The notes: generated by a model from the sequence alone, not told the origin. A DNA stretch of 64,000 bases from the human T2T-CHM13v2.0 reference genome, Homo sapiens (GCF_009914755.1 NC_060929.1), one strand, 5' to 3'. Positions 5,445 to 31,146 are shown, numbered from the stretch's first letter. Made by a program: numbers and translations.

Positions 5445-5546
5445 GAGTGACAGTTCATTTAGATTCTTTGTATTCTTCTTCGTCTATATTTGTCAGTTTG
5501 CTGTACATGTACTCCAAGCTGCAGGATTTCATAACTGGGGCAATTG
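5445..5546 (+). CDS. SCAMP1: SCAMP1 internal coding exon (third from last), 102 nt, phase 2-2; includes a hydrophobic TM segment
   Basis: Branch-like CCTAAC at ~5404, long pyrimidine tract, AAAG|G acceptor and TG|GTAAGT donor. Translates (R)[33 protein letters not shown](C), recognised as SCAMP1. Not called in the ORF track. Confidence 0.95.
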
Positions 5547-7677: not shown

Positions 7678-7917
7678 GCACATTTAGTTTTCTTTTCTTT
7701 TTTTTTTTATTATACTTTAAGTTTTAGGGTACATGTGCACATTGTGCAGGTTAGTTACATATGTATACATGTGCCATGCTGGTGCGCTGCACCCACTAAC
7801 TCGTCATCTAGCATTAGGTATATCTCCCAATGCTATCCCTCCCCCCTCCCTCCCCCCACCCCACGACAGTCCCCAGAGTGTGATATTCCCCTTCCTGTGT
7901 CCATGTGATCTCATTGT

Positions 7918-11764
<3,847 letters not shown>

Positions 11765-11800
11765 TTAGTTGATGCAGTTTCTTCCTAGTCTCGATGGTCT

Positions 11801-12817
11801 TTACATTTTGGCATGATTTTGCAGCGGCTGGTACCGGTTGTTCTTTTCCATGTTTAGCGTTTCCTTCAGGAACTCTTTTAGGGCAGGCCTGGTGGTGACA
11901 AAATCTCTCAGCATTTGCTTGTTTGTAAAGTATTTTATTTCTCCTTCACTTATGAAGTTTAGTTTGGCTGGATATGAAATTCTGGGTTGAAAATTCTTTT
12001 CTTTAAGAATGTTGAATATTGGCCCCCACTCTCTTCTGGCTTGTAGGGTTTCTGCCGACAGATCTGCTGTTAGTCTGATGGGCTTCCCTTTGAGGGTAAC
12101 CCGACCTTTCTCTCTGGCTGCCCTTAACATTTTTTCCTTCATTTCAACTTTGGTGAATCTGACAGTTATGTGTCTTGGAGTTGCTCTTCTAGAGGAGTAT
12201 CTTTGTGGTGGTCTCTGTATTTCCTGAATCTGAGCGTTGGCCTGCCTTGCTAGATTGGGGAAGTTCTCCTGGATAATATCCTGCAGAGTGTTTTCCAACT
12301 TGGTTCCATTCTCCCCATCACTTTCAGGTACACCAATCAGACGTAGATTTGGTCTTTTCACATAGTCCCATATTTCTTGGAGGCTTTGCTCATTTCTTTT
12401 TATTCTTTTTTCTCTAAACTTCCCTTCTTGCTTCATTTCATTCATTTCATCTTCCATTGCTGATACCCTTTCTTCCAGTTGATCGCATGGGCTCCTGAGG
12501 CTTCTGCATTCTTCACGTAGTTCTCGAGCCTTGGTTTTCAGCTCCATCAGCTCCTTTAAGCACTTCTCTGTATTGGTTATTCTAGTTATACATTCTTCTA
12601 AATTTTTTTCAAAGTTTTCAACTTCTTTGCCTTTGGTTTGAATGTCCTCCCGTAGCTCAGAGTAATTTGATCGTCTGAAGCCTTCTTCTCTCAACTCGTC
12701 AAAGTCATTCTCCATCCAGCTTTGTTCCGTTGCTGGTGAGGAACTGCGTTCCTTTGGTAGAGGAGAGGCGCTCTGCGTTTTAGAGTTTCCAGTTTTTCTG
12801 TTCTGTTTTTTCCCCGT
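11801..12817 (-). CDS. L1 ORF1p: 338 codons open, but initiator is ACG; first ATG is codon 35 (12715)
   Basis: AAAG-ACG-GGG-AAA-AAA-CAG reads without a stop into the tracked 304-aa ORF; 1017 nt including stop, the canonical ORF1 length. Confidence 0.85.
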   Translation of the reverse strand, partial: TGKKQNRKTGNSKTQSASPLPKERSSSPATEQSWMENDFDELREEGFRRSNYSELREDIQTKGKEVENFEKNLEECITRITNTEKCLKELMELKTKARELREECRSLRSPCDQLEERVSAMEDEMNEMKQEGKFREKRIKRNEQSLQEIWDYVKRPNLRLIGVPESDGENGTKLENTLQDIIQENFPNLARQANAQIQEIQRPPQRYSSRRATPRHITVRFTKVEMKEKMLRAAREKGRVTLKGKPIRLTADLSAETLQARREWGPIFNILKEKNFQPRISYPAKLNFISEGEIKYFTNKQMLRDFVTTRPALKEFLKETLNMEKNNRYQPLQNHAKM

Positions 12818-13722
12818 CTTTGTGGTTTTATCTACTTTTGGTCTTTGATGATGGTGATGTACAGATGGGTTTTTGGTGTGGATGTCCTTTCTGTTTGTTA
12901 GTTTTCCTTCTAACAGACAGGACCCTCAGCTGCAGGTCTGTTGGAATACCCTGTCGTGTAAGGTGTCAGTGTGCCCCTGCTGGGGGGTGCCTCCCAGTTA
13001 GGCTGCTCGGGGGTCAGGGGTCAGGGACCCAGTTGAGGAGGCAGTCTGCCCGTTCTCAGATCTCCAGCTGCGTGCTGGGAGAACCACTGCTCTCTTCAAA
13101 GCTGTCAGACAGGGACATTTAAGTCTGCAGAGGTTACTGCTGACTTTTTGTTTGTCTGTGCCCTGCCCCCAGAGGTGGAGCCTTCAGAGGCAGGCAGTCC
13201 TCCTTGAGCTGTGGTGGGCTCCACCCAGTTCGAGCTTCCCGGCTGCTTTGTTTACCTAAGCAAGCCTGGGCAATGGTGGGCGCCCCTCCCCCAGCCTCGC
13301 TGCCGCCTTGCAGTTTGATCTCAGATTGCTGTGCTAGCAATCAGCGAGACTCCGTGGGCGTAGGACCCTCCGAGCCAGGTGCAGGATATAATCTCGTGGT
13401 GCGCCATTTTTTAAGCCGGTCCGAAAGGCGCAATATTCGGGTGGGAGTGACCCGATTTTCCAGGTGCGTCTGTCACCCCTTTCTTTGACTCGGAAAGGGA
13501 ACTCCCTGACCCCTTGCGCTTCCCAAGTGAGGCAATGCCTCGCCCTGCTTCGGCTTGTGCACGGTGCGCGCACCCACTGACCTGTGCCCACTGTCTGGCA
13601 CTCCCTAGTGAGATGAACCTGGTACCTCAGATGGAAATGCAGAAATCACCCGTCTTCTGCGTCGCTCTCGCTGGGAGCTGTAGACCGGAGCTGTTCCTAT
13701 TCGGCCATCTTGGCTCCTCTCC
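12818..13722. promoter_or_regulatory. L1 5' UTR: internal sense promoter (-) and antisense promoter (+, same direction as SCAMP1); CpG-rich; YY1 site at 13703-13712
   Basis: The most CpG-dense stretch of the window; CAAGATGGCC intact on minus. Promoter function is inferred from established L1 biology. Confidence 0.8.
13273..13488 (+). CDS. L1 ORF0 (71 aa, antisense to the L1 5' UTR), intact
   Basis: GCAATGG start context; MVGAPPPASLPPCSLISDCCASNQRDSVGVGPSEPG...RFSRCVCHPFL-TGA; internal donors CAG|GTGCAG (13378) and CAG|GTGCGT (13463). Confidence 0.85.
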   Translation: MVGAPPPASLPPCSLISDCCASNQRDSVGVGPSEPGAGYNLVVRHFLSRSERRNIRVGVTRFSRCVCHPFL

Positions 13723-14115
13723 GCATGTTTAGTTTTCTAAAGAAACAGACAAACTGTTCTCTAGAATGCTTGTGCTATTTTACACTCCCACCAACAATTA
13801 TGAGCAATTTAGTCTCCACTTCCTCATCAGCATTTAGTGGTTATTACTTTTTATTTTAGCCATCCTAATAGGTGTGTAGTGATATCTCATTGTGGTTTTG
13901 AACATCTTTTCATGTGCTTATTTGTCGTCTTTATGTCCTCTTAGTAAAATGTCTCTTCATGTCTTTTATCCATTTTCTTAATTTTTGTATTCTGTTGAGC
14001 TTTGAAAGTTATGTATATTCTAGATGTGAATCCTTTGTTGGATATATGGTTTATAAATATCTTCTTTCATAATTCAGCAGAATTGAAAATAAACATTTAA
14101 AAAAATGTAATAATA

Positions 14116-14399
14116 GGCCAGGTGCAGTGGCTCACGCTATAATCCCAGTTTGGGAGGCCGAGTCAGGTGGATCACGAGGTCAGGAGTTTGAGACCAGTCT
14201 GACCAACATGGTGAAACCCCGTCTCTACTAAAGATACAAAAAGTAGCCAGGCGTGGTGGCACGCACCTGTAATCCCAGCTACTCAGGAGGCTGAGGTAGG
14301 AGAATCGCTTGAACCCAGGAGGCGGAGATTACAATGAGCCGAGATCATGCCACTATACTGCAGCCTGGGCAACAGAGCGAGCTTCTGTCTCAAAAAAAA
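14116..14399 (+). mobile_element. Alu (AluSg-like)
   Basis: Dimer with GGATCACGAGGTCAGGAGTT; TSD ~GTAATAATA. Confidence 0.9.
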
Positions 14400-14469
14400 G
14401 AGTAATAATAAATTCAAAACTCATAAGCTTAAAAAATGTACAGCTTAAAAAATGTACAGTCTGGAATTA

Positions 14470-14700
14470 AACACTTGAGACTCTGGAGTTTGGTTTGCTT
14501 TTGAATTTAGACTATGCCATTTATAAGCTGTGTGACCTCGGGCAGATTACTGAATGTCTCAGTTCCTCATTTGTCAAATGGGGATTTAAAACAGCATCTA
14601 TCCTATTGGGTGGGTTGTGAGAATTAAATGCACTAATACACATAAAGAACTTGAATATTGCCTGGCTGATAAGTGTTGAATATGTGTTAGATATTATGCT
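14470..14700 (+). mobile_element. MIR
   Basis: GCTGTGTGACCTCGGGCAG...CTCAGTTCCTCATTTGTCAAATGGGGAT...GTTGTGAGAATTAAATG. Confidence 0.8.
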
Positions 14701-14756
14701 ATTTTTAAAAAGTTTACATCAACCTTTGCCTAATTACACTTTTTATTACTTTTTAG

Positions 14757-14874
14757 TGGTTGGATTTCATCCCTTACTGGTCTCAACCAAAATATTCCTG
14801 TTGGAATCATGATGATAATCATAGCAGCACTTTTCACAGCATCAGCAGTCATCTCACTAGTTATGTTCAAAAAA
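14757..14874 (+). CDS. SCAMP1: SCAMP1 penultimate coding exon, 118 nt, phase 2-0; last TM segment
   Basis: TTTTAG|T acceptor and AAA|GTAAGT donor. Translates (C)[39 protein letters not shown] and joins the previous exon in frame (TG+T = Cys). Confidence 0.95.
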
Positions 14875-16229
14875 GTAAGTGAAATTTTATGTCTAAATTT
14901 TTATAGTGAACGTGATGTAAAGTTCTCATTTTCCTGTTTTGCTATAATTTGGTGTAACCTGAAGCCATTTTATCGTTATTGTATGAGTTTGCTCTCTGAG
15001 GATTACTTTTTACAATTAAAAGTTATGCATAGGTACATTTTAGAAAATTGCATCACATTTTAAACTTCAGTAAAAAGGGAATATTTTAAAATCATTTTAA
15101 CTGAAGGCTTTCATGAGTTAAAGAGTCAGCCTCATTTTTAAAATTTGGATTTTTAAATATACTCTAAATTTCTTTTTTTTGATATGAAGGATATTAGCCT
15201 GTTAATAAATAGAAGTAAAATTATTATGTGATATGTACATTTTATTCATATATATCTCTTAGGTTTTTGTTTTGTTTTTTAATTTTTTATTATAAATTCA
15301 GAGGGAACATGTGCAGGTTTGTTACATGGTTATGTTGCATAATGCTGGGGTTTGGGCTTCTATTGAACCCATCACCCAAATAGTGAACATAGTACCCGAT
15401 AGTTTTTCAAGCTTTGCTCTTCTCCCTCCCTCCCTTTTGGGTCCCCGGTGTCTGTTTCCATCTTTATGTCTGTGTGAACCCTTTGTTTAGCTCCCACTTC
15501 TAAGTGAGAACATGCAGTATTTGATTTTCTGTTAGTGTGTTAATTCACTTAGGATAATGGCGTGCAGCTGCATCTATGTTGCTACGAAGGACATAATTTC
15601 ATTTTTTAGGTGGTGTAGTATTTCGTGATGTATATGTATCACATTTTCTTTATTCAGTCTACTATTGATGGACGCTTAGGTTGATTCTGTGACTTTGCTA
15701 TTGTGACTAGTGCTGCAATAAGCATATGAGTGCAGGTGTCTTTTTGATAAAATGATTTCTTTTCCTTTGGTTAGATACCCAGTATAGGGTGATTGCTGGG
15801 TTGAATGGAAGGTCTATTTTTACTTCTTTGAGAAATCTCCATACTGTTTTCCACAGAAGTAGAACAAATTTATATTCCCGTCAACGGTATATAAGCATTC
15901 CATTTTCTCTGCATCCTTGCCAACATCTGTTGTTTTTTGAGTTTTTAATAATAGCCATTTTGACTGGTGTGAGATGGGAATTATTGTGGTTTTGATTTGC
16001 ATTTCTCTGATTGGTGATGTTGAGTTTTCTTCCATTTGTTGGCTGCTTGTATGTCTTCATTCAAGAAGTGTCTGTTGATATCCTTTGCCTACTTTTTAAT
16101 GGGGTTTTTTTTTTTCTTGTTGATTTGTTTAAGTCCTTTATACATTCTGGATATTAGTCCTTTGTCAGATGCATAGTTTGCACATATTTTCTCCCATCCT
16201 GTAGATTGTCTCTTTCTTTACTCTGTTTA

Positions 16230-16640
16230 TTCTCTCTTTCTTTCTTTTGGTTTCTTTTCTCCCTCCTTCCTTCCTTCCTTCCTTCCTTCCTTCCTTCCTT
16301 CCTTCCTTCCTTCCTTCCTTCCGTCTTTCCTCTATCTGTCTCTCTTTCTGTCTTCCTGTCTCTTTTGTGAAAGAGAGTCTCACTCTGTCACCCAGGCTGG
16401 AGTGCAGTGGCTCAATCTCAGCTCATTGCAATCTCCACCTCCCGTGTTCACACAATTTTCCTGTCTCAGCCTCTTGAGTAGCTAGGATTACAGGTGTGCA
16501 CCAGCATGCCTGGCTAATTTTTATATGTTTAGTAGAGATGGAGTTTGACCATGTTGGCCAGCCTGGCCTTGAACTCCAGACCTCAAATGATCAGCCCTCA
16601 CAAAGTACTGGGATTACAGGCATGAGCCACCACGCCCAGC
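16230..16640 (-). mobile_element. Alu with an expanded (TTCC)n tail (16264-16322)
   Basis: Reverse Alu body at ~16370-16640 preceded by a C/T microsatellite. Confidence 0.88.
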
Positions 16641-17061
16641 CTGTTTAGTGTTTCTTTTGCTATGCAGAAGCTCTTTAAGTCCCATTTGTCAATTTTTGTT
16701 TGTGTTCCATTTGCTATTGAGGTCTTAGTAGTAAATTCTTTGTCTAGGCCAATGTCTAGAAGAGTATTTCCTAGATTTTCTTCTAGGATTTTTGTAGTTT
16801 GAGGTTTTACATTTAAGTCTTCAATCCATCTTGAGTTAATTTTTGTATGTGGTGAGAAGTAGGGGTCAATTTTATTCTTCTGCATGTGGCTAGCCAGTTT
16901 ACCCAGCACCATTTATTGAATAGGGTGTCCTTTCCCCATTGTTCATTATTGTCAGCTTTGTTAAAGATCAGTTGGTTGTAGGTGTGTGGCATTATTTCTG
17001 GGTTCTCTGTTCGATTGGTCTGTTTTTGTACTGGTTACCATGCTGCTTGCTTACCATAGTC

Positions 17062-17352
17062 TTTTTTCTTTTTTGAGACAGAATCTTGCTCTGACGCCCA
17101 GGCTGGAGTGCAGTGGCACAATCTCGGCTCACTGCACCCTCAGCCTCCCCAGGTTCAAGTGATTCTCATGCCTCAGACAGCCAAGTAGTTGGGACTAACA
17201 AGCGTGAACCACCATTCCTGGCTGATTTTTGTATTTTTAGCAGAGACGGGATTTCACCATGTTGGCCAGGTTGGTCTCTAACTCCTGGCCTCAAGTGATC
17301 CGCCCGCCTCAGCCTCCCAAAGTGCTGGGATTACAGGTGTGAGCCACTGTGC
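17062..17352 (-). mobile_element. Alu (S/J)
   Basis: Reverse Alu dimer. Confidence 0.9.
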
Positions 17353-17689
17353 ACTATAGTTTGAAGTCAGGCATTATGATGCCTCTGGCTTTGTTCTTTT
17401 TGCTTAGGATTGCTTTAGCTATTCAGACTCTTTTTGGTTCCATATGAATTTTAGAATTGTATTTTCTACTTCTGTGAAAAATGATGTTGGTAATTTGATA
17501 GGATTGTATTGAATCTATATATTGCTTTGGACAGTATGGTCATTGTAACAATATTGATTCTTCTAATCCATGAATGTGGATGTTTTTCCATTTCTTTGTG
17601 TCATGTGTGATTTCTTTCATCAGTGATTTGCAATTCTTCTTATGGAGTTCTTTCACCTTCTTAGTTAAATGTATTCTGGATGTGTGTAG

Positions 17690-17691
<2 letters not shown>

Positions 17692-17725
<34 letters not shown>
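17692..17725. repeat. (GT)n microsatellite, ~17 units
   Basis: Read directly. Confidence 0.97.
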
Positions 17726-17726
<1 letters not shown>

Positions 17727-17831
17727 TATTGTAAATGGGATTGGGTTCTTTATTTGGTTCTCAGCTTGAACGTTGTTGGTGTTTAGAAATGCTACTGATT
17801 TTTGTATGTTGATTTTGTATCTTGAAACTTT

Positions 17832-18119
17832 TTGTTGGTTTTTTGAGACAGAATCTCACTCTGTTGCCCAGGCTGGAGTGCAGTGGTGTGATCTTGGCTC
17901 ACGGCAGCCTCTACCTCCTGGGTTCAAGCAATTCTCATGTTTTAGCCTCCTGAGTAGTCGGGATTACAGATGTGGCACCTGGCTAATTTTTTTTGTATTT
18001 TTAGTAGAGATGATTTCGCCATGTTGGCCAGTCTGGTCTGTAACTCCTGACCTCAAGTGATCTACTTGCCTTGGCCTCCCAAAGTTCGGGATTACAGGCG
18101 TGAGCCACCACACCCAGTC
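17832..18119 (-). mobile_element. Alu (S-type)
   Basis: Reverse dimer; perfect TSD TGTATCTTGAAACTTT (17816-17831 / 18120-18135). Confidence 0.92.
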
Positions 18120-19123
18120 TGTATCTTGAAACTTTACTCAAGTTAGTTATCAGGTTTAGGAGTCATTTAGGATTTGTAACTGCCCAGTTGTTTTAGCTAC
18201 ACTTCTTCCTGTAGAATTCCCATGTCTGTTTTCACAGCTTTAAAAAAAAAATCATTACATAGAGGAAGGTAAATTAGTGTTTTTATTTGTTTATTTAAAG
18301 TTTTATTTTGTCTTGGATATATGTAATTTTGATATATTTTATATGTATTCAAACATGATATTGAGACCTTGGGAATAACACCTATGTTTTAAATGAAAAA
18401 GACTTTTTGATAGGTCTCACTTTAAAGAAAATAAGTCCTTATAATTTTTTTTACCATTTCATTACTTGAGACTATGTATGAGGAATGCATAGAAATAATT
18501 TTACCTTATATTTAAAACCACTTTGTACTCTTTCAGTACTTTACTCAGACATTTGTCTTTTATCCTTCTCAAAACCCTACGAAGGTTAGACTGTGTCCGT
18601 TCTTCCATATTTTCTCTATTTGAAATTTTTAACTTCTCTTCTGCACCAAACACACATACCATTGACACTCAGCTCTCTAATGTTACTAAATCCCTTTTCC
18701 AGTTTTCCTCCTCCTTAACCTCTGTAGCTTTCTACACCACAGATGGCTCCTCTGCTAAGACTTTGCAATGATGTTCTAATTCTCTTGACTCTCTGGCTAT
18801 TCTTTCTCCTCCATTTCTTCATCCAGTTCATAAATTAAGGTCTTAAATGTAATCGGCTCTTTGTGCTATGCAGTCATTTTCTTTGGGAATTTCATCTTCC
18901 CTTATTATTTCAGTTTCTTCTCTACCTAGATGACCTAGAATCTTGGAATTGGAAAAGATAATGCATTGCATAAACCTTTAGTTGCATCTTCAATTGGTCA
19001 TTTTCATCTCCAGTTGTTGATTGATGTCATCTTCTCGCAGTAATGCCTCATAAACTCTTCAGTTTCTTAGTGATAGATGTTCCTTTTGAACGTTCTGAGT
19101 AATATTCAAGAAGCATTTATTAA

Positions 19124-19368
19124 GACCACATATTGTATAGATTCCATTATTGTGAAATGTATAAAATGGGCAAATATATAGAGACAGAAAATGTGTTACA
19201 GCTTGCCTGTGGCTTATGGGTGGGGTGGGGAGTGAGGGTAATGAAAGTATTCTAAAATTAGGTTGTGTAGATATTATAGTCACAACTCTATGAATATACT
19301 AAAAATCATTGAATTGTACACTTTAAAGGGTAAAATGCATAGTATACAGATTTTATCTTAATGAAGCT
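19124..19368 (+). mobile_element. Old L1 (L1M) extreme 3' fragment
   Basis: CACAACTCTATGAATATACTAAAAATCATTGAATTGTACACTTTAAA. Confidence 0.75.
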
Positions 19369-19420
19369 TTTTTTTTTTGAAGAAACACTTATTGAATACC
19401 TACTAATGAGATGGCACTAA

Positions 19421-19921
<501 letters not shown>

Positions 19922-20769
19922 ACTTCCATTACTTTTTAATTCACTTTCTTAGATACCTTTTTAGTATCTTTTCCATTTCCAACCTCAGCTAATCCAGAAA
20001 TTCTTTTTACAGGTTACTTATATTCCCTCATCCTTCTCGCAGTCCATTTAATATATAATTCCTATATTAACCTTAAAAAAACCCCAACAAATTGGCACTC
20101 TGCAGATTTTTGACGTGGATCTGGGATTGGGAACGGCATTTTGGTGGCAGTGCGAAGAAGGGCTACATTCAGAAACACCAGCATTGCTAAGGTTGTAAAA
20201 ACACACTACATGCCATAAAGCCATCAAATGGGCCTTAATAACCTAATGATGAAATCACTTTTATTTTGCTCAGCCATACTCTGGGCCCTATGCAGAACAC
20301 TTCACCAGTATTATGCCATTTTGTCCTCTCGGAGAATCACAGATTGGGATTATAGTGGTGGTGGGAAGAAGGGCTAATGGTGACGTCTCACAGCTCCATG
20401 ATTCACACTTTCTATTCTTGTCAGACTGTACTGCTCGGTTTCTTCAAATACATCATGTACATTCCTTTGTTCCAGATTTTGTTTATATGATGTTTTTTAA
20501 TCCGTGCATTAATTCGTCTTCTCTGCTATTTGAAGACCTACTAGTATTCTTTCAAGACCCAGCTCCGATCTTGCTGTGTCTCCCAGAATGTTTTTTGTTG
20601 CCTTGTATCTTAGGGACCATGTCATTCTCTGTTTTCTTGGGGAAACTTAACTGTCTATATTGCTTACTGTGGCACCTGGGCATAAGCCAGTTTTTATGCC
20701 TTATGGTGCATGTATTCTGGGTACGCAGCTGTTAAGCACCCCCCGCGTGAACAAGTCTTTTAGCATTGG

Positions 20770-21125
20770 AATTAGATGAGAAGAGCAAGAGTTTTGCTTT
20801 GGAACCATACAACTCAGGTTGAAATTTTGACAGCTTCACTTACAGCTCTGTGACCTGAGACAGACTTCTGTAACCACTCAGGTTTGGTGTCCTCAACTGT
20901 ACTCCAAGCTGCGTGAGAGTGGAGACCTGTTCTGTATGCTTTCAGGTTGTAATTCTCACATCTGGAACAGTGACATGCAGTGATTGGCATGTGATAGGCA
21001 CTCAGATATTTGTTGAATAAAAGAAGGAATGGGAAGAGTAACCACTTTCATAGGGTTGGTGTGAGGATTAAATGAAACAGTGAATGTAAACTGCATAGAA
21101 TAGGGCCTTCTCAGTTAATAGTTTT
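20770..21125 (+). mobile_element. MIR interrupted by an L2 3' fragment
   Basis: MIR-like AGCTCTGTGACCT and CATAGGGTTGGTGTGAGGATTAAATGA flank an L2 end, TAGGCACTCAGATATTTGTTGAATAAA. Confidence 0.6.
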
Positions 21126-21199
21126 CCTTTCTGATCTTGACCTTTTTATCATTTTATATTCAGGGTCTGGTTTAGTGTCTACTTTTGTTTAGTAGATGC

Positions 21200-21559
21200 C
21201 TTTATCAGTCAGCATGCTATCAGAAACAGAAAGAATGAAAAGGTTAATTGCGGGGAATTGGCTGGTGAGGTCAGTCTGATATCAAGAGGGCAGGCCGGAA
21301 CTCTCAGGCAGAAGTTGAAACTCTGGTCCACAAGTGGGATTTCTTCTTCCTCAGAGGAACTCCAGTTGTGTTCTTAAGGCCTTTCAACAGATTGGATGGG
21401 GCATACCCAGATAATCTAGAACACTCTTCTTAAAGTCAACTGAAGGCAGATGCCGATTACATCTACAAAATACCTTCACAGCGGCACCTAGGTTAGTGTT
21501 TGATTGAATAATTGGAGACTGCGGCCTAGCCAAATTAACATGTAACACTGACCATCACA
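21200..21559 (-). mobile_element. MLT2-type (ERVL) solo LTR
   Basis: CTTAAAGTCAACTGA...CATCTACAAAATACCTTCACAGC...CCTAGCCAAATTAACA...ACCATCACA. Confidence 0.75.
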
Positions 21560-21679
21560 GCACCATTCTTTGGAGAATTCCTTTATTATTTCACATGTAT
21601 TATTGAGGGTGTTTTATAGAAGTAGAAATGTAATACATTTTGAGTATAGTAGAGGGTTTTGTGGTGTGTGGCAGTTTTC

Positions 21680-22750
21680 ACTCATTTGTTAAACAGCTGT
21701 TATTGAGCATATATTACGTGCCAGGCACTGGGCTGTGCATGAGCTCAGAGAGATCACCTGTTGGTGAGGAAGAGAAATAAATTGGTGGGCCCCCCAATTC
21801 AGTTATTTAATGGCCATGATAGAGGTAAGTATAGGGAGCAGAGGGACACCTATCAGGTTTTGGAGGTCTTTTTAAGTATTGCCTCAGCTGAGATATAATG
21901 ATGGCTGCTCATCATTATAGTTATCTAAGCAAAAGAATAAGGGACAGGGAAGAGGATAAGAGGGATAAGGAGGTACCAGAGAGTGGGGATACCACGTTCA
22001 CATCTAGTTGTAGGAAATAACATGGCAAATTCAGGGAATTAAATGTAGCTCAGAATGGATGGGAGATAAAACATGGTGTGTGAGCTGGGGCTAGGAGAAT
22101 TGTAGGTTGTTGGTATTGGAAGATGAAATTGAACACGTAAGTATAGTTTTATCCTACAGGGTCTTGTTAAGAAGTTTAAATCTTCTCCAAAAAGTGGTAG
22201 TGAGCCATAGAAGAGTTTTAAGGAGGAGAGTAATTGAATTGATTAGATTTGAATTTTAGAAGCATTTATTCTGAAATACATTTGGGATTTGCGGGGCCGA
22301 GCAGTCGTACTTGGAAACACTTAGGAGACGGGCTAGGAAGCTGATTAGTAATGATGGTGGCCTGAACTGAGGAAATGTGAAGAAAATGTAGTCAAGAGAA
22401 AACGAGCAGGTAAGGATTAATCCAACTGGGCCTGGAAGTAGGGGACAAGATAAGACTCAAGGATGACACCCAGGTTTTTAGATGATGGACCATTCAAGAA
22501 GAGAGTACAAGAAAAATGGTTTGGGGATCAAGATGTTTTCCACGTTGACCTTGAATTTGGGGAGTTTAAATTAACTGGTGGGGCATTAAAATATAAATAT
22601 TGAGTAGGCTTTTGTATATATGAGTTAGGAGCAAGGGAAGAACTTTAGGCTGGATTTCTAGACTGGAAAGTATTGACTTGTTGAAGTAAATGAAGCCTAG
22701 AAAGTGTATGGAGTCAGAAGAGGGCTTTGGGGAGAATACTCACAACAATT
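21680..22750 (-). mobile_element. L2 LINE (degenerate)
   Basis: Reverse L2 end TTATTGAGCA...GTGCCAGGCACTG; internal CTCAAGGATGACACCCAGGTTT. Confidence 0.65.
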
Positions 22751-24396
22751 AAGACTCTGCTGTGGGTGAAGTATAAAGGGAACTTTAACCATCACTGGCA
22801 GTGGTTGAGGAATGTGTGGCACAGATGATCAATAGAGCCAGGGTGTGGAGGAAGTGTTTATTCTGTAGCTGTTCTATAATGAACTACTCTGTGCACACTC
22901 TGAATACTTTGACCAGCAGTTTTTTTCCTTTCCATTTTCCAGGTATACAGTTTTTCAGGATCCACCACACAAAGGAAAAGTTATAGAATGGTGCTCATAT
23001 GCCAGGCATTGAAAAGAAATATGACTTTCTCGAATAAAAGTATTGATATGGATATCATGCAGCATACTCTAATATTTTGTTGTTGTTGTTGTTTTTACCT
23101 CATAGTTAAAGAAGTTACCAGAACTTCTGTTTATATGTGTTCACAAGTTCCTAAACTTCTCTGGGTCTCAGATTCTTTATCTGTGAAATAAGGAGTTTAG
23201 ATGAGATGATTTTCTGTATGATTTTATGAAGTACGATAGGGATACTATAAGCTAAAATATAATTTGCACCAGCTTTCATATTTTAATAGCAGGCATTTCT
23301 CTTGCTGTAATAGAAATTAAGATCCAATTTTAAAAACCTAATTTTTCCTTTTTAATTTTCTGTTTCACACTTGGTCAAAACTGGCAGTTTAATGACAAAA
23401 AATCCTTTGCAGGTATGTAGCAGTATTTATAACCACTAGGGGTCATGCTTTTCAAGAACAGTTAATGCCCTCTAACCGTAATCTGTGCACGGTTTTGACT
23501 CTAGAATTGTTGGGTTTTATTAAGCTGTTCTTCTCTTAAGGTAAATGTGCTCTGTCCTATATATTCATCCTAATTGAAGTGAATAGGATTTTGGTAATTT
23601 CGTTGGCTTTCTGTTGTCTTGCATAACTGAAGTGGGTCATCATTGGTGCTGCAGGGCCCAGTATGAGATTGTGCTGTTTGTTTCCCCCACAGTGTTGTTT
23701 TATACTCCACATTTCAAATATTGAAAGAATATATGTCTCCTATACATCTGCATGGAGAAGGGTCTAGTTTAGTCCTTATCTTTCACAAATAGATTTCTTG
23801 TTTTCTTTCAGATTATTTCCAAATGGTGTTTTTACAAAAGCTCCTCTTTCTATTAGAACTATCAGAAAGAATTGAGTAATGGTTTTGGGCCAAGCAGGGA
23901 GTTGTTATAAATGTGTCAAATAACAGTAAATGAATGCATCACAGGAGACTATGGATCAGGGAATCCAAAACTTTTCCCTTCTGTTAATTGGTATGGCTAG
24001 AATAACTTAATATGGAAGTAATTAATAGATGATATATCATTTGTATTCCTTTTGGGACCTGATTTTGAATGATTATCACTTCCATGAAATTTGTTCATAG
24101 ACTGTCATGTTCACATTAAGTAGTTTTTAATAGTGAATTTTTTGCATTTTGAAAGAATTTTAGAAAAAAGTTATTTTACCTCTTTAAAAAACAAGTTTTC
24201 TGAAGTGTTTCAAATCTTGTTTATTTACTACAGTATATATTCTGCAGATACTCATTTTTGTGGGAGCGCTGAATTGGGTCTATGATACAGAACACTGTGA
24301 TTAAGTCTCATTAGTTGGTGTTTTATGGTAAATGCTTTGTGAAGATATCCTATTATATATAAAGTGATAGTTTTCTTAGGTGAAAAGTGACTCTTA

Positions 24397-24620
24397 CAGT
24401 TATCCCTCTATATGCAGGGGATTGGTTTCAGAACCCACACATCCATATACCAAATCTATGCATACTCAAGTCTTGGAGTCAGCCCTGCAGAACCCATGTA
24501 TACAAAAAGCCTTCTGTGTACTTGGGTTTTACATCCCATGAATACTGTATTTTCTATGTGAGTTTGGTTGGAAAAAAATCACATATTATAAGTGGACCTG
24601 CCCAGTTCAAGGATTATCAT
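24397..24620 (+). mobile_element. MER8-like TcMar-Tigger DNA transposon fossil
   Basis: TA|CAGTTATCCCTC...GGGGATTGGTTTCAG...AAGTGGACCTGCCCAGTTCAA. Confidence 0.75.
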
Positions 24621-25179
24621 CTATACTTTCTTGAAAATATTGTTATCATTCACCTCTCCCCCTTGTCTCTTCCACTTTGTAACTTTATTTATGACCTAGG
24701 ATAGAAAGCTGATAATTCCACTGTACTATTTTTCTATAGTCACAAATAGGCATGCTACTTCTCTCTCAGAACCATTCAGCACTGTCGTCTTTGCTGACTA
24801 GGAATCAATTCTGGATGGTTCACATTGTCTATTAAAATAGTCATCCAGTTACTTGTCACCTTCTTCTAAGGGACACAGATAGAGTAATACTTTTGAATTC
24901 CTAGAAAAAAATGGCACTCTTGAGCAGATTGTTTATATTCTGTCCTCGGCTGATACTCTTAGTATATTCACCAAAAAAAAAAAAACTTTACCCCCAATTT
25001 TAATTTTGTTACCTTTTTCAATAAGTACTAAGCTAGCTACTTAATAGATCCCAAATCTAGGTTACTATAACTAAATTATTATTATCTTAGGCATCTTCAA
25101 ATTTGGTAGATTTCGTAGATTGGTGAGTATTTATAATGCTGTTCATGTGGCACTTTCATCTAAGTCATCTTTATATGCA

Positions 25180-25385
25180 TATTTTTATCAGCTTTATTGA
25201 AATATAATTCACATACAATTCACCCATTTAAAATATACGGTTTAGACTGTGCATGGTGGTTCACACCTGTAATTCTAGCACTTTGGGAGGGTTTGGGGGG
25301 CCGAGGCAAGAAGATGACTTGAGGCGAGGAGTTTGAGATCAGCCTGGGCAACATAATGAGACTACCCTCCAACCCCTTACAAGAC

Positions 25386-25417
<32 letters not shown>

Positions 25418-26340
25418 ACAGCCCAGGCATGGTGGTGTGAGTTTATTGTCCTAGCTGTTGGAGAGACTGAGGTGGGAGGATCACTTGAACCCAGGAGTTT
25501 GAGGCTGCAGTGAGCTATGATTGCATACCACTACACTCCAGCCTGGGCTACTGAGTGAGACCTTGTCTCTAAAAAATACAAAATAATTTAAAAAAACCTA
25601 AAGTATACAATTTAATGGCTTTTGGTGTATTGTATTTGTTTTAATTGTGGCAAAATATGTATAACATAAACTTTGACATTTTAATTACATTTAGGTATAC
25701 AATTCAGTGGCATCAATTACATTCACAGTGTTGTACAACCATTACTAATGTCTATTTCCAGAACTTTGCATCACCCCAAACAGAAACTCTAATCATTAAG
25801 CAATAATTTTATTCCTCCCTATTCTCAGCCTCTGGCAGCCTCTAATTTGCTATGAATTGCCTATTTTAGATATTTCATATAAATGGAGTTATACAATATT
25901 TTCCTTTTGTACTTGGCTTCTTTCATTACCATAATGTTTTCAAGGTTCATCCGTGTTGCAGCATGTATCAGAAATGCATTCATTTTTAAGACTGAATAAT
26001 ATTCCATTGTATCTGTATACTACATTGTTTATCTGTTGATGGGCATTTGAGATTTTCCCACCTTTTGGCTATTGTGAATAGTGCTGCCGTGAACATTGGT
26101 GTACAGTTATCTGTTTGAGTCTTTGCTTTTACCTCTCTTGTGTACATATATACCCAATGTGGAATTCCTATGTAGTCTTATAGTAATTCTATGTTTAGGT
26201 TTTTGAGGCACCTCCAAACTCTTTTCTGGAAGGACTGTATCATTTTACATTCCCACCAGCACTTTCTCTACATCCTTGCCAACACTTGTGATTTTCCGTT
26301 TTTCTCATTCCAACCATCCTAGCAGGTGTGAAGTAGTTGT
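25180..26340 (-). mobile_element. Old L1 (L1MB-like) 3' end with a nested AluJ
   Basis: CAGCTTTATTGAAATATAATTCACATAC...; CAAGGTTCATCCGTGTTGCAGCATGTATCAG. Confidence 0.75.
25244..25598 (+). mobile_element. AluJ with a long central poly(A) (25389-25416)
   Basis: GAGGCTGCAGTGAGCTATGATTG J diagnostics. Confidence 0.85.
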
Positions 26341-27721
26341 ATACTTTAAAAACATTTAACCTCTGAGGTGACTGCAAACTAAGCATTTTACTTTGTAACA
26401 CAGGTATAGTCTCCTTAAGCCATATTGCACTTATTTGGTACCTTCTAAAAATTATTATTAATGAGGACAATTTTGGAACATTTAATCCTCAGCAGGTAGT
26501 AATAATAATTATTCAGTGGCTTCTACTGCAGATTACTAAGCTGTGTCTTTTAGGGGGTGTAACAATGAGTAGAATTAGTTCTTGCCCTTAGGCAAGTAAA
26601 AGCATGTAGGATATAATACAAAATGGACAGAAACCCTGTAAAAGAAAAAGTACATACATGCTCCCCAAAATGTACAAAGGATTGGCGGTACTCTCAATAG
26701 GGAAAGCCATAGCTAGTTCAGGCACAAAATGGCAGACAGAGCATTATTTGAGATAGTGCTTAAAGGGTGCGTGAGATTTCGACATGGTGAAACTAGACTG
26801 GCAATTCAAGGGGTTACAAAAGGGATATCTGACCCATCTGTGGGCAGGAGGGTTCATAGAGGGTTTCCAGAAATTTCAAACTGAAAATATTAGGCTTAGA
26901 CGTCCATACTTTTTTAAAAACTCAAAACAAGAATTTAAAAAATATATTTAAAAAACTCATTTGTTTTTATTTTCCCAGCTTTTATAAAAGTTGAAATAAT
27001 TTTGGCATGACAGGGATCTTAATAAAAGCACAGTTTCTTGAAATGGTATTCTATATGTTTTAATGAAGACATATGTTTGGGTTATTTAAATAAAGTGCCA
27101 TTATTCTTTACTTCCCACACGATACAGTTTTTCTGTGTCATATACCACCACAGCATGTATTGTCTCTGAAGCTGCATTAAGGAGGCAGGACTCCTTTATG
27201 GAGCCGCATCTACATTTTGGCTGTGACACTTTGGCAGATACTTAAAAATTAATTTAACTTATGTTAGTGTAACTCATTTATATACATTCTGATTTGATCT
27301 TTAGGAAAACTCAGAGGAGCAGATAGTGTAACAAATATTCTTTTTTTATGGGAAGCAGACTTGAAGTTTTGAGTGGTGGCCAGCCAGCTAGAAAGTAGTG
27401 GAATTAGTATATACCAAATTTAATGCCTTTTCTGTGATTTTCCTAGAACTAAATATTATTTTAGGAGTAATGCAGTTCTCATAAGTAGAAAAGATAGTAT
27501 TTAAGTTGTTTAATTTTTTTTTTGAATTCTCTAGGCTATTCTGCATTTATGGAATTTTCCACTAGGTAATATGCATTCAGGTCACATACACAGTGAGATT
27601 TTCTAAAGTGACAGTACAGATAAAAAGGCTGTGCAACTTGGTGATAATTGTGCTCCATTTAAGCAACCATCAACTGGTGCATTTTTTTAAAGATAAATTA
27701 GATTTTATCAAAATTGAAATA

Positions 27722-27880
27722 TTTTTTCTTTTTGATACTTTAAGTTCTGGGATACATGTGCAGAACATGCAGGTTTGTTATGGGTATACATGTGCCATGG
27801 TGGTTTGCTGCACCCATCAACCCATTATCTACATTAGGTATTTCTCCTAACGCTATGCCTCCCCTTGCCCCCCACCCCCA
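27722..27880 (-). mobile_element. Short L1PA (PA7/8-like) 3' end
   Basis: ATACTTTAAGTTCTGGGATACATGTGCAGAAC...CATCAACCCA. Confidence 0.8.
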
Positions 27881-28939
27881 AGTTGTGTAATTTTTTTAAA
27901 AAAATTATAGTACTTGGTGTCAAAACCTTGTCCCTGATATCAGCAGTATGAATTATCAATAGATACCATCTGAAACCCTGGAGGGAAGTAATAAGCTTTT
28001 AAAGATGTTCATCCTGATGATTAGCCTGTCATCTTTCATGGGGCCCTGAAATCAAGAATCCACCCTTTTTCACATGGATATAATGGATTTAATACAGTAT
28101 TTAGCATTATGCACTGTATATATATGTGGTCTTTTCCCTCTAGGTGGCTCTCTGGGTCTATATAGATACAAACTATTGAGAAATGTGGCTATTCCTACCT
28201 TTATTTTGCTTCTGTGTTCTGTGGGACTGTGAATTACATTTTAGTAAACTGTGAAGCCCATGAACACATAGTATCAGCTGCTCAATTTAGTGCAAGTTTG
28301 AAAAAGGAAATAATAAAGCAAATAAGAATTAACATTTATTTATTACATGCTCACAAACTTGGGGGAAGAGGGGAAGAGACAGACAAGTGAATCCAATTGC
28401 ATTGCTCTGGTTTGGTCTAGTAAGTAAAGAAGGTTGATAAGATTTCTATAATACACTTCATTTTCTAGGATCCAATCATTTGTACTCACTTTGAGATAAG
28501 TGTCTGGAACATAGGAGTAGTGATTTATCTATATCTTTAATTTTCCATAGAAAACTTGGTTTTAAAAGGGAATAAAAATAATTACTTTTATACTTAACGA
28601 TAGTGCTAAGGTACTAGGGGAAAGGAATCTTTGGATTTACCAGTATATGTATTTGTGAGTGCTCTTTTTCTTCCTGACCATTTGACACTTTGATCTGTAG
28701 TAATATGGCGTTTGCTTTTACCACTGTATCAGAAGCACTCAGGGCTGTCTGGGTTATTTTTGTCTTGTACCGTGATAGATTTTCATGCATTAACTTGCTT
28801 TCTTGATAGTTTTTCTGACAGCTTTTCATGTGTTAACATGCTTTCTTCTCTTGGCATCAGTGAGAAGTATCTGTATCTGGTTCTTCCCTTTCCTCTCCCA
28901 GTCATTCTTTCTTCTTGTGGATGCCTCTTAAATAGTGTC

Positions 28940-29235
28940 TTTTTAAAACAATTTCAAGTTTTATTTTAGATTCAGGGGATACATGTGCAGGTTTGTTACA
29001 AGGGTATATTATGTGATACTGAGGTTTGGGGGACAGTTGAGCCTGTCATCCAGGTAGTGAGCATAGTACCCAATTGGTAGTTTTTCAACTCTTCTCCCCC
29101 TCCCACCTTCCCCTATCTTTTAAGTCCCCAATATCTATCGTTGCCATCTTTATGTCCATGTATACCCAATGTTTAGCTCCCACTTAAAAGTGAGAACATG
29201 TGATATTTGGTTTTCTGTTTCTGCATTAATTAGGT
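28940..29235 (-). mobile_element. Older L1PA 3' end fragment
   Basis: TTTTAGATTCAGGGGATACATGTGCAGGTTTGTTACA...GCTCCCACTTAAAAGTGAGAACATG. Confidence 0.8.
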
Positions 29236-29321
29236 TATATACTTGATTTTATTCTCTTTCTACTCTGGGTTCTCCATAGACAGTTTCATAAATGCCAAGG
29301 TTTCAGCTATCATTTATATGT

Positions 29322-29788
29322 TGTTTTAGTCCCTTTGGGCTGCTATAACAAAAATACCATAGATTGGGTAGCTTAAACAACAGATAATGATTTCTCATAG
29401 TTCTAGAGGCTGAGAAGTCCAAGATAAGAAAGACACTGACAAATTCAGTATCTCAGGGGGGCCAGCTTCCTGGTTCATAGACAGTTTCTGTGTCCTTTTG
29501 TGATGGAAGGTTGTCAGAGAGATCTCTGGAGTCTCTTTAAAAAAAAAAAAAAGTTCTTTTTGGAGACGTATATTGCCCAGGTTGGAGTGGAAGGCTGGGA
29601 CCATAGGTGTGTGCCACCACACTGGGCCTTGGGGGTCTCTTTTATAAGGGCATTTATTCCATTAATGCAAGCTTCACCTTCATGGCAAAATCACCCCCGA
29701 AAAGGCCTGCCTGCTAATACCATCATATTGGTGGTTGGGATTTTAACATAAGAATTTTGGGGGGAACACAAACATTCAGTCCATAACA
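29322..29788 (-). mobile_element. MLT1A-type MaLR solo LTR with a small Alu-derived insert
   Basis: TG...CA ends; 5-bp TSD TATGT/TATGC; GCTGCTATAACAAAAATACCATAGA and ACAAACATTCAGTCCATAACA. Confidence 0.8.
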
Positions 29789-30981
29789 TATGCCATTGGT
29801 TTCCAAGTCCATGTCTTTAGCCCATTCCTCTCCCAAGCTTTGAACCAAACCTTTACCTGCCTGCTGTGGCAGGCCTAGAGTAGGTTGTCAGTAGACTTGG
29901 AATGAATGAACAAATGTTTAGAACTTATCATCTGCCTTCTCCCCAAACCAGCCTATCCTCTCTTTTCTCTGTCTTCTTGAAACTACTTTCCCAAATGCAA
30001 GCTTGCTTTGAGAATCTTTGACTCATTCTTTTTCTTACCTCACAGTTACCAGTTCCTATCCAGGTTTGGAAAAAATACTGACTTGGATGCATTGGCCCTT
30101 CCCTAAGCCTGCTTTGATTGCATTCCAGTCAAGCTTCTAATTTAGATCCAGTCACAGTGCAGTGTAATTACCAGTATCTTTCTGTCCCCACTCTGCGAAG
30201 TTTGTGGGCATATAATTAATAAATGTTTGTTATTTCCTTCTTCAAATTTGTGTTAAAATAAGTGGCTGATGTTATGTATTGATGGACTCATAGTTTAATT
30301 ATGCAGGTTTTAAGACATATACTGATAGAAAATTTTTGAACCCTACTCCTGAAAATAAATTCCAAGATTTGAGTGATTAATCAGTATGGAGAAACAATTC
30401 CCAGAAGTGTTTCTTTGTGCATTCTTTAGGACTTGACCATAAACAAAAAGTTAAATTGTATACAGAGTGCATAGCGGCAATATGTTGAAGGACATAAGTA
30501 GTGCTTGGTACATTAAATGATAAAATGATCTCATTTGATTATAACAGGGCCTGTGGTGTATATGTAGATAAAATGGAAATAGATAAGGTACTGTTCTCTC
30601 TGAATAGTCTGGGGTAATAAATTAATGTATTGTTTCTTGTTATTATGTTTAAACCATTTCATTGTAATGCTGTAATAATTTCACTTGACTAATTGGGTGC
30701 AGAGGAAAATACAACTTTTTGAAGTTGGCTAAGAAGTTCTTTATTTTTGGTTTAAATTAGCATAATTATCTCTTCTGCTTGGAGAAGAAAAGGAAAACCT
30801 ATATTAAGAAAATGTTTAAATACAATTATTGTGTGTCAGTTTGGTGGCTAATATTCTTGATCTTAGGAATCATGACTACAATCTAGTATTTTTATGTTTG
30901 ATTAATGTTGAGATTAAGAGCTGCTGGAAATGAATGCGTAGGTTGCTACTTACCTTCTCCCACTTTTTTGTGCCTCTGTAG

Positions 30982-31146
30982 GTACATGGACTATATCGCA
31001 CAACAGGTGCTAGTTTTGAGAAGGCCCAACAGGAGTTTGCAACAGGTGTGATGTCCAACAAAACTGTCCAGACCGCAGCTGCAAATGCAGCTTCAACTGC
31101 AGCATCTAGTGCAGCTCAGAATGCTTTCAAGGGTAACCAGATTTAA
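30982..31146 (+). CDS. SCAMP1: SCAMP1 last exon, coding part (C-terminal cytoplasmic tail)
   Basis: TGTAG|G acceptor; [54 protein letters not shown] then TAA at 31144-31146; contains the [16 protein letters not shown] motif. Confidence 0.96.

What the first reader, a model, noticed from the sequence alone, without database searches (positions are those of the whole stretch)
13273..31146. In-frame L1 ORF0-SCAMP1 fusion protein predicted from the antisense L1 promoter
Seen in sequence: ORF0 (ATG 13273) is intact. Its second donor CAG|GTGCGT lies 191 nt after the ATG (63 codons + 2, phase 2), and the next SCAMP1 exon (14757, ~1.3 kb away) needs phase 2. Splicing 13463->14757->30982 gives 63 aa of ORF0 + Ser (AG+T) + GWISS...FKK + VHGL...GNQI = 157 aa with no stop. 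The first donor (13378, phase 1) would be out of frame. Established: the L1 antisense promoter and ORF0 donors create chimeric transcripts. Inference: a hominoid-specific single-TM SCAMP1 isoform lacking the N-terminal NPF region, expressed when this L1 is demethylated. I recall L1-antisense/SCAMP1 chimeras being reported in the ORF0 literature, so the transcript may be known; a function for the protein is the more open question.
Basis: partly seen in the sequence, partly recalled or inferred. Interest (0 to 1): 0.85.

Follow-up and report, generated by a model that had tools for sequence, protein, structure and literature searches.

The report
Known L1 antisense-promoter SCAMP1 chimeric transcript
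A dead L1 retrotransposon sitting backwards in a SCAMP1 intron can start a shortened SCAMP1 transcript, which is already in print, and the predicted in-frame ORF0-SCAMP1 protein is arithmetically correct but unproven and probably not what the known transcripts encode.

Summary
The sequence observation holds. ORF0 (ATG 13273, 71 aa) is intact. Its second donor (CAG|GTGCGT after 13463) is phase 2. Splicing 13463>14757>30982 gives an open 157-aa frame, while donor 1 (after 13378) gives a 53-aa out-of-frame product.

The frame match is weak evidence. About one downstream coding exon in three would fit a given donor, and past the junction the frame is simply SCAMP1's own.

The transcript is already published. 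Criscione 2016, Table S7, lists 10 spliced ESTs from a bladder carcinoma cell line. They start antisense in this L1PA2, reach SCAMP1's last exons, and are flagged "previously identified".

Mapped onto the window, their 5' ends lie at or after the ORF0 ATG. My preferred anchor puts them 28-63 nt downstream, so 0 of 10 contain the ATG. The alternative anchor gives 5 of 10, with a leader of at most 6 nt. Without that ATG, the first AUG is 14809, in SCAMP1's frame inside its last transmembrane helix, giving 76 aa.

The fusion would keep only about 40 of 172 SCAMP-domain positions. Verdict: a known kind and a known transcript, with the protein and any function unproven. Low interest.

The parts
7694..13723 (-). 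Full-length L1PA2, about 6.03 kb, antisense to SCAMP1 in the intron between exons 5445-5546 and 14757-14874. It is coding-dead.
   Evidence: NCBI repeat mask 7679-12955 and 12959-13723 (hub table). Called L1PA2 in Criscione Table S7 and 'L1PA2 REF full-length, SCAMP1' in the Lanciano 2024 supplement. The ORF2 region is split into ORFs of 461 and 645 aa, and the longest ORF1-region ORF is 304 aa.
7678..7693 (.). Target-site duplication, 3' copy
   Evidence: 14 of 16 bases match 13723-13738. The two differing bases are CA versus TG, as expected if an ancestral CpG decayed in each copy (inference).
13723..13738 (.). Target-site duplication, 5' copy
13273..13488 (+). L1 ORF0: 71 codons plus TGA, at L1 nt 451-236 on the antisense strand
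   Evidence: No ATG occurs in the 300 nt upstream. No Pfam family matches.
13376..13384 (+). ORF0 splice donor 1, CAG|GTGCAG. The exon ends at 13378, phase 1. It is out of frame with SCAMP1 exon 8.
   Evidence: 6 of 9 consensus matches.
13461..13469 (+). ORF0 splice donor 2, CAG|GTGCGT. The exon ends at 13463, phase 2. It is in frame with SCAMP1 exon 8.
   Evidence: 8 of 9 consensus matches.
13301..13336 (+). Cluster of the 5' ends of the 10 published L1-SCAMP1 ESTs under the preferred mapping (L1 nt 423-388). Under the alternative mapping the cluster is 13267-13302.
   Evidence: Table S7 coordinates, mapped. Fits Criscione's 'primary L1 ASP at ~400 bp'.
14757..14874 (+). SCAMP1 penultimate coding exon, encoding the last transmembrane helix. 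It is the acceptor for the chimeric transcript.
   Evidence: Hub annotation. Pfam SCAMP PF04144, profile positions 125-164 of 172, E=9.6e-07. EST BF208190 ends in or at the end of this exon.
14809..14814 (+). ATGATG in SCAMP1's frame. It is the first AUG of the chimeric mRNA when the ORF0 AUG is absent or skipped, and gives a 76-aa product.
30982..31146 (+). Coding part of SCAMP1's last exon (cytoplasmic tail and stop)
   Evidence: Hub annotation. Nine of the 10 ESTs end in this exon.

Best explanation
A full-length but coding-dead L1PA2 lies antisense in a late SCAMP1 intron. Its 5' UTR antisense promoter can start transcription towards the gene's 3' end. A donor inside the ORF0 region then splices to SCAMP1's penultimate exon, giving a short L1-SCAMP1 chimeric mRNA that ends at SCAMP1's normal poly(A) site. 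This is an already catalogued member of the known class of L1 antisense-promoter chimeric transcripts. It has been seen in a cancer cell line and is probably confined to cells where this copy is unmethylated.

The 157-aa ORF0-SCAMP1 frame is a real possibility, but it needs two things together: a start site upstream of 13273 and use of donor 2. The documented cDNAs start at or after the ORF0 ATG. Their most likely product, if any, is therefore a 76-aa C-terminal SCAMP1 fragment starting at AUG 14809.

I read the frame compatibility as chance, and any fusion protein as a low-level by-product without a selected function.

Shown: the anatomy, the frame arithmetic, the existence of the ESTs, and the subfamily. 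Inferred: which donor is used, the true start sites, translation, and the lack of function.
For: - Anatomy and frames.
- Published transcripts: Criscione 2016 (PMC4908685) Table S7 lists 10 ESTs, all from a bladder carcinoma cell line. Each starts antisense in an L1PA2 within SCAMP1. Nine end in the last exon and one ends in the penultimate exon. [quoted passage not shown] The main text names SCAMP1 as a locus with both antisense-promoter ESTs and separate, non-overlapping L1-exonization ESTs.
- General mechanism in print: ORF0 has two donors that can fuse it to downstream exons (passages seen). Criscione, citing Denli, says 57 of ~3200 genic ORF0 loci showed exon fusions.
- Start sites: maps the EST 5' ends to L1 nt 388-423, so 0 of 10 contain the ATG. 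The anchor is the alignment end of BF208190 set equal to the exon end at 14874. The same mapping places the hg38 L1 coordinates exactly on 7699-13723, using a recalled hg19-to-hg38 shift. It also fits Criscione's 'primary L1 ASP at ~400 bp', just past a YY1 site at nt 448-453. In this copy the ORF0 ATG is at L1 nt 451-449.
- Methylation: 10 of the 12 cell-line values for this copy are 0.88 or higher, and 2 are 0.12-0.17 (column order not verified).
- Little of SCAMP1 is retained: exon 8 covers profile positions 125-164 of 172. There is a single hydrophobic segment, residues 77-101 of the 157.
Against: - ESTs are often 5'-incomplete, so true start sites could lie upstream of 13273. No ATG occurs in the 300 nt upstream, so any such transcript would present ORF0's well-contexted AUG first.
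- Donor 2, the in-frame one, fits the consensus better: 8 of 9 matches against 6 of 9. The fusion's stop is SCAMP1's own, in the last exon, so by the recalled rule that mRNA would escape nonsense-mediated decay.
- Under the alternative gene-end anchor, 5 of 10 ESTs do include the ATG.
- The preferred mapping rests partly on a recalled hg19-to-hg38 shift.
- I could not read Denli 2015. SCAMP1 may be among its 57 observed ORF0 fusions, which would be direct evidence that in-frame fusion transcripts exist.
- I saw no human RNA-seq, CAGE, Ribo-seq or proteomic data.
Confidence: 0.75

Rival explanations
1. In cells where this L1 is unmethylated, the antisense promoter starts upstream of 13273 and donor 2 splices to exon 8. 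A 157-aa single-pass ORF0-SCAMP1 membrane protein is made and has a lineage-specific function.
For: - The frame is open, with a strong start context.
- ORF0's ATG is the first ATG for any start within 300 nt upstream.
- Donor 2 is the better donor.
- The stop lies in the last exon.
- ORF0 fusions are an established class.
- The locus is hypomethylated in 2 of 12 profiled lines.
Against: - The 10 known cDNAs start at or after the ATG.
- The phase match is expected by chance about 1 time in 3.
- The product keeps only about 40 of 172 SCAMP profile positions. It lacks the N-terminal region and three of the four helices (SCAMP topology recalled).
- The ORF0 part has no hydrophobic, signal-like segment (maximum KD19 of 0.69). 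Native orientation of the helix would therefore need translocation of a 76-residue N-terminus carrying 7 Lys/Arg.
- The element is young, is one of thousands of similar copies (3816 first-look candidates), and is methylated in most lines.
- No paper in the searched library links SCAMP1 to an ORF0 fusion protein.
Confidence: 0.15
2. The documented chimeric mRNAs lack the ORF0 AUG. Either they are translated from the first remaining AUG (14809, SCAMP1 frame) into a 76-aa fragment holding most of the last helix plus the cytoplasmic tail, or they are effectively non-coding. Which L1 donor is used then does not affect the product.
For: -: with a start at 13302, both donor choices give the same first ORF of 76 aa.
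- 0 of 10 ESTs contain the ATG under the preferred mapping. Under the other mapping the leader is at most 6 nt, which by recalled knowledge favours leaky scanning.
- The AUG at 14809 has A at -3.
Against: - 5' truncation of the ESTs is not excluded.
- A 76-aa peptide that begins inside a transmembrane helix may be unstable.
- There are no translation data.
Confidence: 0.4
3. The ESTs are not promoter-derived. They are 5'-truncated copies of longer SCAMP1 transcripts in which part of the antisense L1 is exonized or retained.
For: Criscione placed SCAMP1 in the ambiguous table (S7) because independent ESTs support L1 exonization at this locus.
Against: - The authors state that the two EST sets do not overlap.
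- All 10 5' ends fall within 36 nt, at the position of the known antisense start zone.
- I found no strong acceptor-like site just upstream. This was not tested formally, because one search scanned only 13500-14760.
Confidence: 0.08

Closest known systems
ORF0 fusion proteins of primate L1 (Denli et al. 2015, Cell; known to me only through passages in Criscione 2016, Hancks & Kazazian 2016 and a 2026 Viruses review)
   Same: A 71-aa antisense ORF in the 5' UTR of an L1PA2, with two internal donors. Donor 2 joins in frame to a downstream host coding exon.
   Different: At this locus no transcript has been shown to contain both the ORF0 AUG and the donor-2 junction, and no protein evidence exists. 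I could not check whether SCAMP1 is in Denli's list (paper not held).
L1 antisense-promoter chimeric transcripts (Speek 2001; Nigumann 2002; Criscione 2016; the bladder-cancer L1-MET case is recalled, not read here)
   Same: The transcript starts antisense in a young L1's 5' UTR, splices to downstream host exons, and yields a 5'-truncated host mRNA in a cancer cell line. This very locus is listed with 10 ESTs.
   Different: Nothing essential. Criscione filed the locus in the ambiguous table because exonization ESTs also exist.
'Gene-breaking' by intronic antisense L1 (named in the figure legend of Hancks & Kazazian 2016)
   Same: An antisense intronic L1 supplies a promoter for a transcript covering the downstream part of the host gene.
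   Different: I did not examine the upstream half of the model, namely premature polyadenylation of SCAMP1 inside the L1.
Canonical SCAMP1 (NM_004866.6; Pfam SCAMP PF04144)
   Same: The last membrane helix and the C-terminal tail would be identical, read in the same frame with the same stop.
   Different: The N-terminal region, the first three helices and the loops between them would be missing. Only profile positions 125-164 of 172 are retained.

Membership tests
L1 ORF0 | An ORF of about 70 aa on the antisense strand of the 5' UTR of a young primate L1 (L1PA1-8) | tested here: met
   71 codons at 13273-13488, which is L1 nt 451-236 of an element called L1PA2.
L1 ORF0 | Two splice donors inside the ORF | tested here: met
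   GT donors after 13378 and after 13463. The feature itself is described.
L1 antisense-promoter chimeric transcript | cDNAs that start antisense in the L1 5' UTR and are spliced to host-gene exons | tested here: met
   10 spliced ESTs in Criscione Table S7. I saw coordinates only, not the sequences.
L1 antisense-promoter chimeric transcript | A capped start site, as opposed to a truncated longer transcript | not testable with these tools
   No CAGE or RACE data were available. The clustering of the 5' ends within 36 nt is suggestive.
ORF0 fusion protein | Reading-frame continuity from the ORF0 AUG through a donor into a host coding exon | tested here: met
   Donor 2 gives 157 aa. Donor 1 does not, stopping after 53 aa.
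ORF0 fusion protein | The transcript contains the ORF0 AUG with a usable leader | tested here: not met
   Under the preferred mapping, 0 of 10 ESTs contain the AUG. Under the alternative, 5 of 10 do, with a leader of at most 6 nt. EST 5' truncation remains possible, so this counts against the documented cDNAs, not against the locus in every cell type.
ORF0 fusion protein | The in-frame donor is used in real transcripts | not testable with these tools
   Table S7 gives only alignment start and end. EST sequences and RNA-seq data are not available here.
ORF0 fusion protein | Evidence of translation (ribosome footprints or peptides) | not testable with these tools
   No such data are held.
SCAMP family (PF04144) | The full SCAMP domain with four membrane helices | tested here: not met
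   The chimeric product would include only exon 8's match to profile positions 125-164 of 172 and one hydrophobic segment. It would be a fragment of a member, not a full member.

The most novel reading that the evidence does not exclude
In cells where this L1PA2 copy is unmethylated (early embryo, germline, embryonal carcinoma, some tumours), a share of antisense transcripts starts upstream of 13273 and uses donor 2. This would produce an ape-restricted 157-aa single-pass membrane protein that carries ORF0's N-terminal 63 residues on SCAMP1's last helix and tail. Such a protein could reach SCAMP1-type recycling membranes and interfere with SCAMP1 function. It could also serve as a tumour-restricted antigen through its junction peptide.
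Probability: 0.12. Interest if true: 0.45.

Novelty: already known. Interest (0 to 1): 0.2.

Why it matters
The locus shows how a young L1 can cut a shorter transcript out of a host gene. If the fusion protein were really made, it would be one more primate-restricted ORF0 chimera and a possible tumour-specific junction peptide. However, the class is established and this locus's chimeric cDNAs are already catalogued. The in-frame match is what chance gives about one time in three.

The catalogued cDNAs appear to start downstream of the ORF0 start codon, so 'in frame on paper' should not be read as 'fusion protein expressed'. The same check, start site versus ORF0 AUG, applies to other predicted ORF0 fusions.

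Tried and rejected
1. Gene-end anchor. I first mapped the hg19 EST coordinates by setting the gene end 77776562 equal to window 36217. That puts 4 ESTs exactly on the ATG. I now prefer the nearer anchor, the BF208190 alignment end set equal to the exon-8 end. It agrees with the hg38 L1 coordinates and with Criscione's ~400-nt start zone. The 22-kb span to the gene end also contains three long microsatellites or homopolymers (16211-16354, 17681-17725, 25389-25416), and the RefSeq 3' end may differ between versions. Both mappings are reported.

2. Papers not held. Denli 2015 and Speek 2001 are not in the library. I could therefore not establish which earlier source first listed SCAMP1, or whether it is among the 57 observed ORF0 fusions.

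3. Supplements not seen:
- Criscione's Figure S5B is in a PDF that cannot be read.
- In Lanciano 2024, file 2 was not searched and file 4 is cut.
I did not call the tool again, so the Lanciano column header was never checked.

4. The search of earlier findings was not open.

5. Literature searches for SCAMP1:
- With ORF0, 'L1 antisense promoter', 'antisense promoter' + chimeric, or L1PA2: each returned only Criscione 2016.
- With LINE-1 + antisense: Criscione plus one unrelated 2026 review.
- With 'transposable element' + 'alternative promoter': 0 papers.
- asked for any 2 of 3 terms. It found 903 papers, and only Criscione among the 25 listed held SCAMP1.
- Supplements and non-CC papers are not covered by these searches.

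6. Pfam on ORF0 returned 0 families.

7. I did not send the spliced fusion protein to the structure, homology or complex tools, because it is a joined sequence. No human transcript, CAGE, Ribo-seq, proteome or other primate genome resource was available. As a result, donor usage, start sites, translation and the age of the insertion were not tested directly.


Full report
**Observation**

I read the three stretches named in the finding and recomputed the frames from window coordinates in a script.
- The ATG at 13273-13275 has G at -3 and G at +4. It opens a 71-codon frame that ends with TGA at 13486-13488.
- Two GT donors lie inside it. CAG|GTGCAG follows 13378 (106 nt from the ATG, phase 1). 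CAG|GTGCGT follows 13463 (191 nt, phase 2).
- The annotated SCAMP1 exon 14757-14874 follows a pyrimidine tract and TAG, and begins with the third base of a codon.
- Joining 13273-13463, 14757-14874 and 30982 onward gives 157 codons ending at SCAMP1's own stop (31144-31146). The junction codon is AG+T = Ser.
- Using donor 1 instead gives a stop after 53 codons, 62 nt before the last exon junction.

**Is it more than chance?**

No. After an in-frame junction the read is SCAMP1's native frame, so its openness is automatic. The only coincidence is the phase match, about 1 in 3 for one donor. Because the two ORF0 donors have different phases, about 2 in 3 downstream coding exons would fit one or the other.

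An intact ORF0 is also common.
- A 401-nt query around it found 3816 first-look candidates in the window's own genome. The 39 other scored matches are 96-97% identical.
- All 7 of the 7 closest copies I fetched have an open 71-aa ORF0. All 7 keep the donor-1 GT and 5 of 7 keep the donor-2 GT. These are best hits, so the sample is biased.

**The element**

- The repeat mask (7679-12955, 12959-13723) and a 16-nt target-site duplication delimit a full-length L1 of about 6.03 kb on the minus strand. The duplication copies are 7678-7693 and 13723-13738, matching at 14 of 16 bases.
- The two mismatching positions read CA in one copy and TG in the other. That is the pattern expected if an ancestral CpG decayed in each copy (inference).
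- Two independent sources call it L1PA2: Criscione 2016 Table S7 and the Lanciano 2024 supplement, which lists it as 'chr5:78452185-78458210:-:L1PA2:REF, full-length, SCAMP1'.
- It is coding-dead. The ORF2 region is split into ORFs of 461 and 645 aa, and the longest ORF in the ORF1 region is 304 aa.
- The 5' UTR keeps 36 CpGs (observed/expected 0.50).
- With L1 nt = 13724 minus window position, the ORF0 ATG is at L1 nt 451-449. Donor 1 ends at nt 346 and donor 2 at nt 261.

**What is in print**

Four searches pairing SCAMP1 with L1-related terms returned only Criscione et al. 2016 (PMC4908685). The terms were ORF0, 'L1 antisense promoter', 'antisense promoter' + chimeric, and L1PA2. A fifth search added one unrelated review, and a sixth found nothing.

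In Criscione's main text (passages), SCAMP1 is an example of a locus where ESTs supporting antisense-promoter transcription and ESTs supporting L1 exonization both exist and do not overlap.

Table S7 (supplement; header) lists 10 ESTs, all from a bladder carcinoma cell line.
- Their hg19 starts run from 77753611 to 77753646.
- Nine end in the last exon and one ends in the penultimate exon.
- The L1 source is L1PA2 on the minus strand.

So the chimeric transcript is known, and it was known before 2016.

[quoted passage not shown] Criscione, citing Denli 2015, gives 57 observed exon fusions among ~3200 genic ORF0 loci. Denli 2015 and Speek 2001 are not held. I therefore could not see whether SCAMP1 is one of the 57.

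**Where the known cDNAs start**

This is the point that bears most on the interpretation. Table S7 gives hg19 coordinates, so I mapped them to the window in two ways.

Anchor A sets the hg19 gene end equal to window 36217.
- The 5' ends fall at 13267-13302.
- 5 of 10 ESTs contain the ATG, with leaders of 0-6 nt.

Anchor B sets the alignment end of BF208190 (77755185) equal to the end of exon 8 (14874), only 1.5 kb from the L1.
- The 5' ends fall at 13301-13336, which is L1 nt 423-388.
- 0 of 10 ESTs contain the ATG.

I prefer B for three reasons.
- With a recalled hg19-to-hg38 shift of 704,176, it places the hg38 L1 coordinates exactly on 7699-13723. Those positions are the start of the poly(A) run and the mask end.
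- The 34-nt gap between the anchors is easily explained. Three long microsatellites or homopolymers lie between exon 8 and the gene end (16211-16354, 17681-17725, 25389-25416), or the RefSeq 3' end may have changed.

The recalled shift is a weakness, and ESTs can be 5'-incomplete. Under either mapping, though, no catalogued cDNA carries the ORF0 AUG behind a normal leader.

**Consequences for coding**

- No ATG occurs in the 300 nt upstream of 13273, and no further ATG occurs in the L1-derived exon.
- A transcript starting upstream of 13273 would therefore present ORF0's AUG first.
- A transcript starting downstream has its first AUG at 14809-14811. That AUG is in SCAMP1's frame inside the last helix, and gives 76 aa whichever donor is used.
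- Donor 2 fits the consensus better than donor 1, 8 of 9 against 6 of 9. Which one the ESTs use cannot be seen from the table.

**The hypothetical protein**

- Pfam places exon 8 at SCAMP profile positions 125-164 of 172 (E=9.6e-07) and the preceding exon at 91-122. ORF0 matches no family.
- The 157-aa product has one hydrophobic segment, residues 77-101. No window in the ORF0 part exceeds a 19-residue Kyte-Doolittle mean of 0.69.
- The 15 residues after the helix carry a net charge of +2, against 0 for the 15 residues before it.
- Keeping the native orientation (tail in the cytoplasm; topology recalled) would require moving a 76-residue N-terminus carrying 7 Lys/Arg across the membrane without a signal peptide. 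This is inference. It makes a well-behaved isoform less likely but does not exclude it.

**Regulation**

The Lanciano supplement gives 12 methylation values for this copy: 0.17, 0.98, 0.95, 0.97, 0.12, 0.92, 0.94, 0.97, 0.98, 0.91, 0.97 and 0.88. They sit next to a list of 12 cell lines. I did not see the header, so I cannot say with certainty which lines are the two low ones.

The pattern fits a copy that is silent in most cells and open in a few. RefSeq's enhancer feature 12843-13452 (hub table) overlaps the antisense-promoter region.

**Verdict**

The chimeric transcript is real and already catalogued, and the mechanism is textbook for young L1s.
- The in-frame fusion is a chance-level compatibility, and the available cDNA evidence does not support it.
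- 'Hominoid-specific' should be narrowed to the age of L1PA2 (recalled: roughly the African-ape lineage). No function is indicated.

The most useful next step is trivial: align the 10 named ESTs to read their donors and 5' ends, and check Denli's fusion table.

Noticed in passing
window 13273-13278, compared with L002-L008: Codon 2 of ORF0 is GTG (Val) here. Four of the 7 closest paralogues have Ala at this position, 2 have Val and 1 has Glu. The ATG and the following bases lie at L1 nt 451-446, overlapping the YY1 site that Criscione places at nt 448-453. A CpG-to-TpG change in this copy may therefore have altered that site. This is inference and was not tested.
   Followed up: partly
window 7678-7693 and 13723-13738: The target-site duplication of the L1 matches at 14 of 16 bases. 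The two differing bases read CA in one copy and TG in the other, as if one ancestral CpG decayed independently on each side.
   Followed up: partly
window 16211-16354, 17681-17725, 25389-25416: A long (TCTT/TCCT)n array, a (TG)22 run and an A28 run lie in the last SCAMP1 intron. They are likely length-polymorphic, and they plausibly explain the 34-nt difference between hg19-based and T2T-based distances.
   Followed up: no
window 12843-13452: RefSeq's 'enhancer' functional element (hub table) covers the L1 5' UTR antisense-promoter region and the first 180 nt of ORF0. The experiment behind that feature was not available here.
   Followed up: no
window 13526, 13871, 14166: Three further donor-like sites (7 of 9 consensus matches) lie between ORF0 and SCAMP1 exon 8. 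Several acceptor-like sites also occur, with exon starts at 13528, 13733, 13831, 13860, 13945 and 14078. They could give alternative first-exon structures or the 'exonization' ESTs mentioned by Criscione.
   Followed up: no
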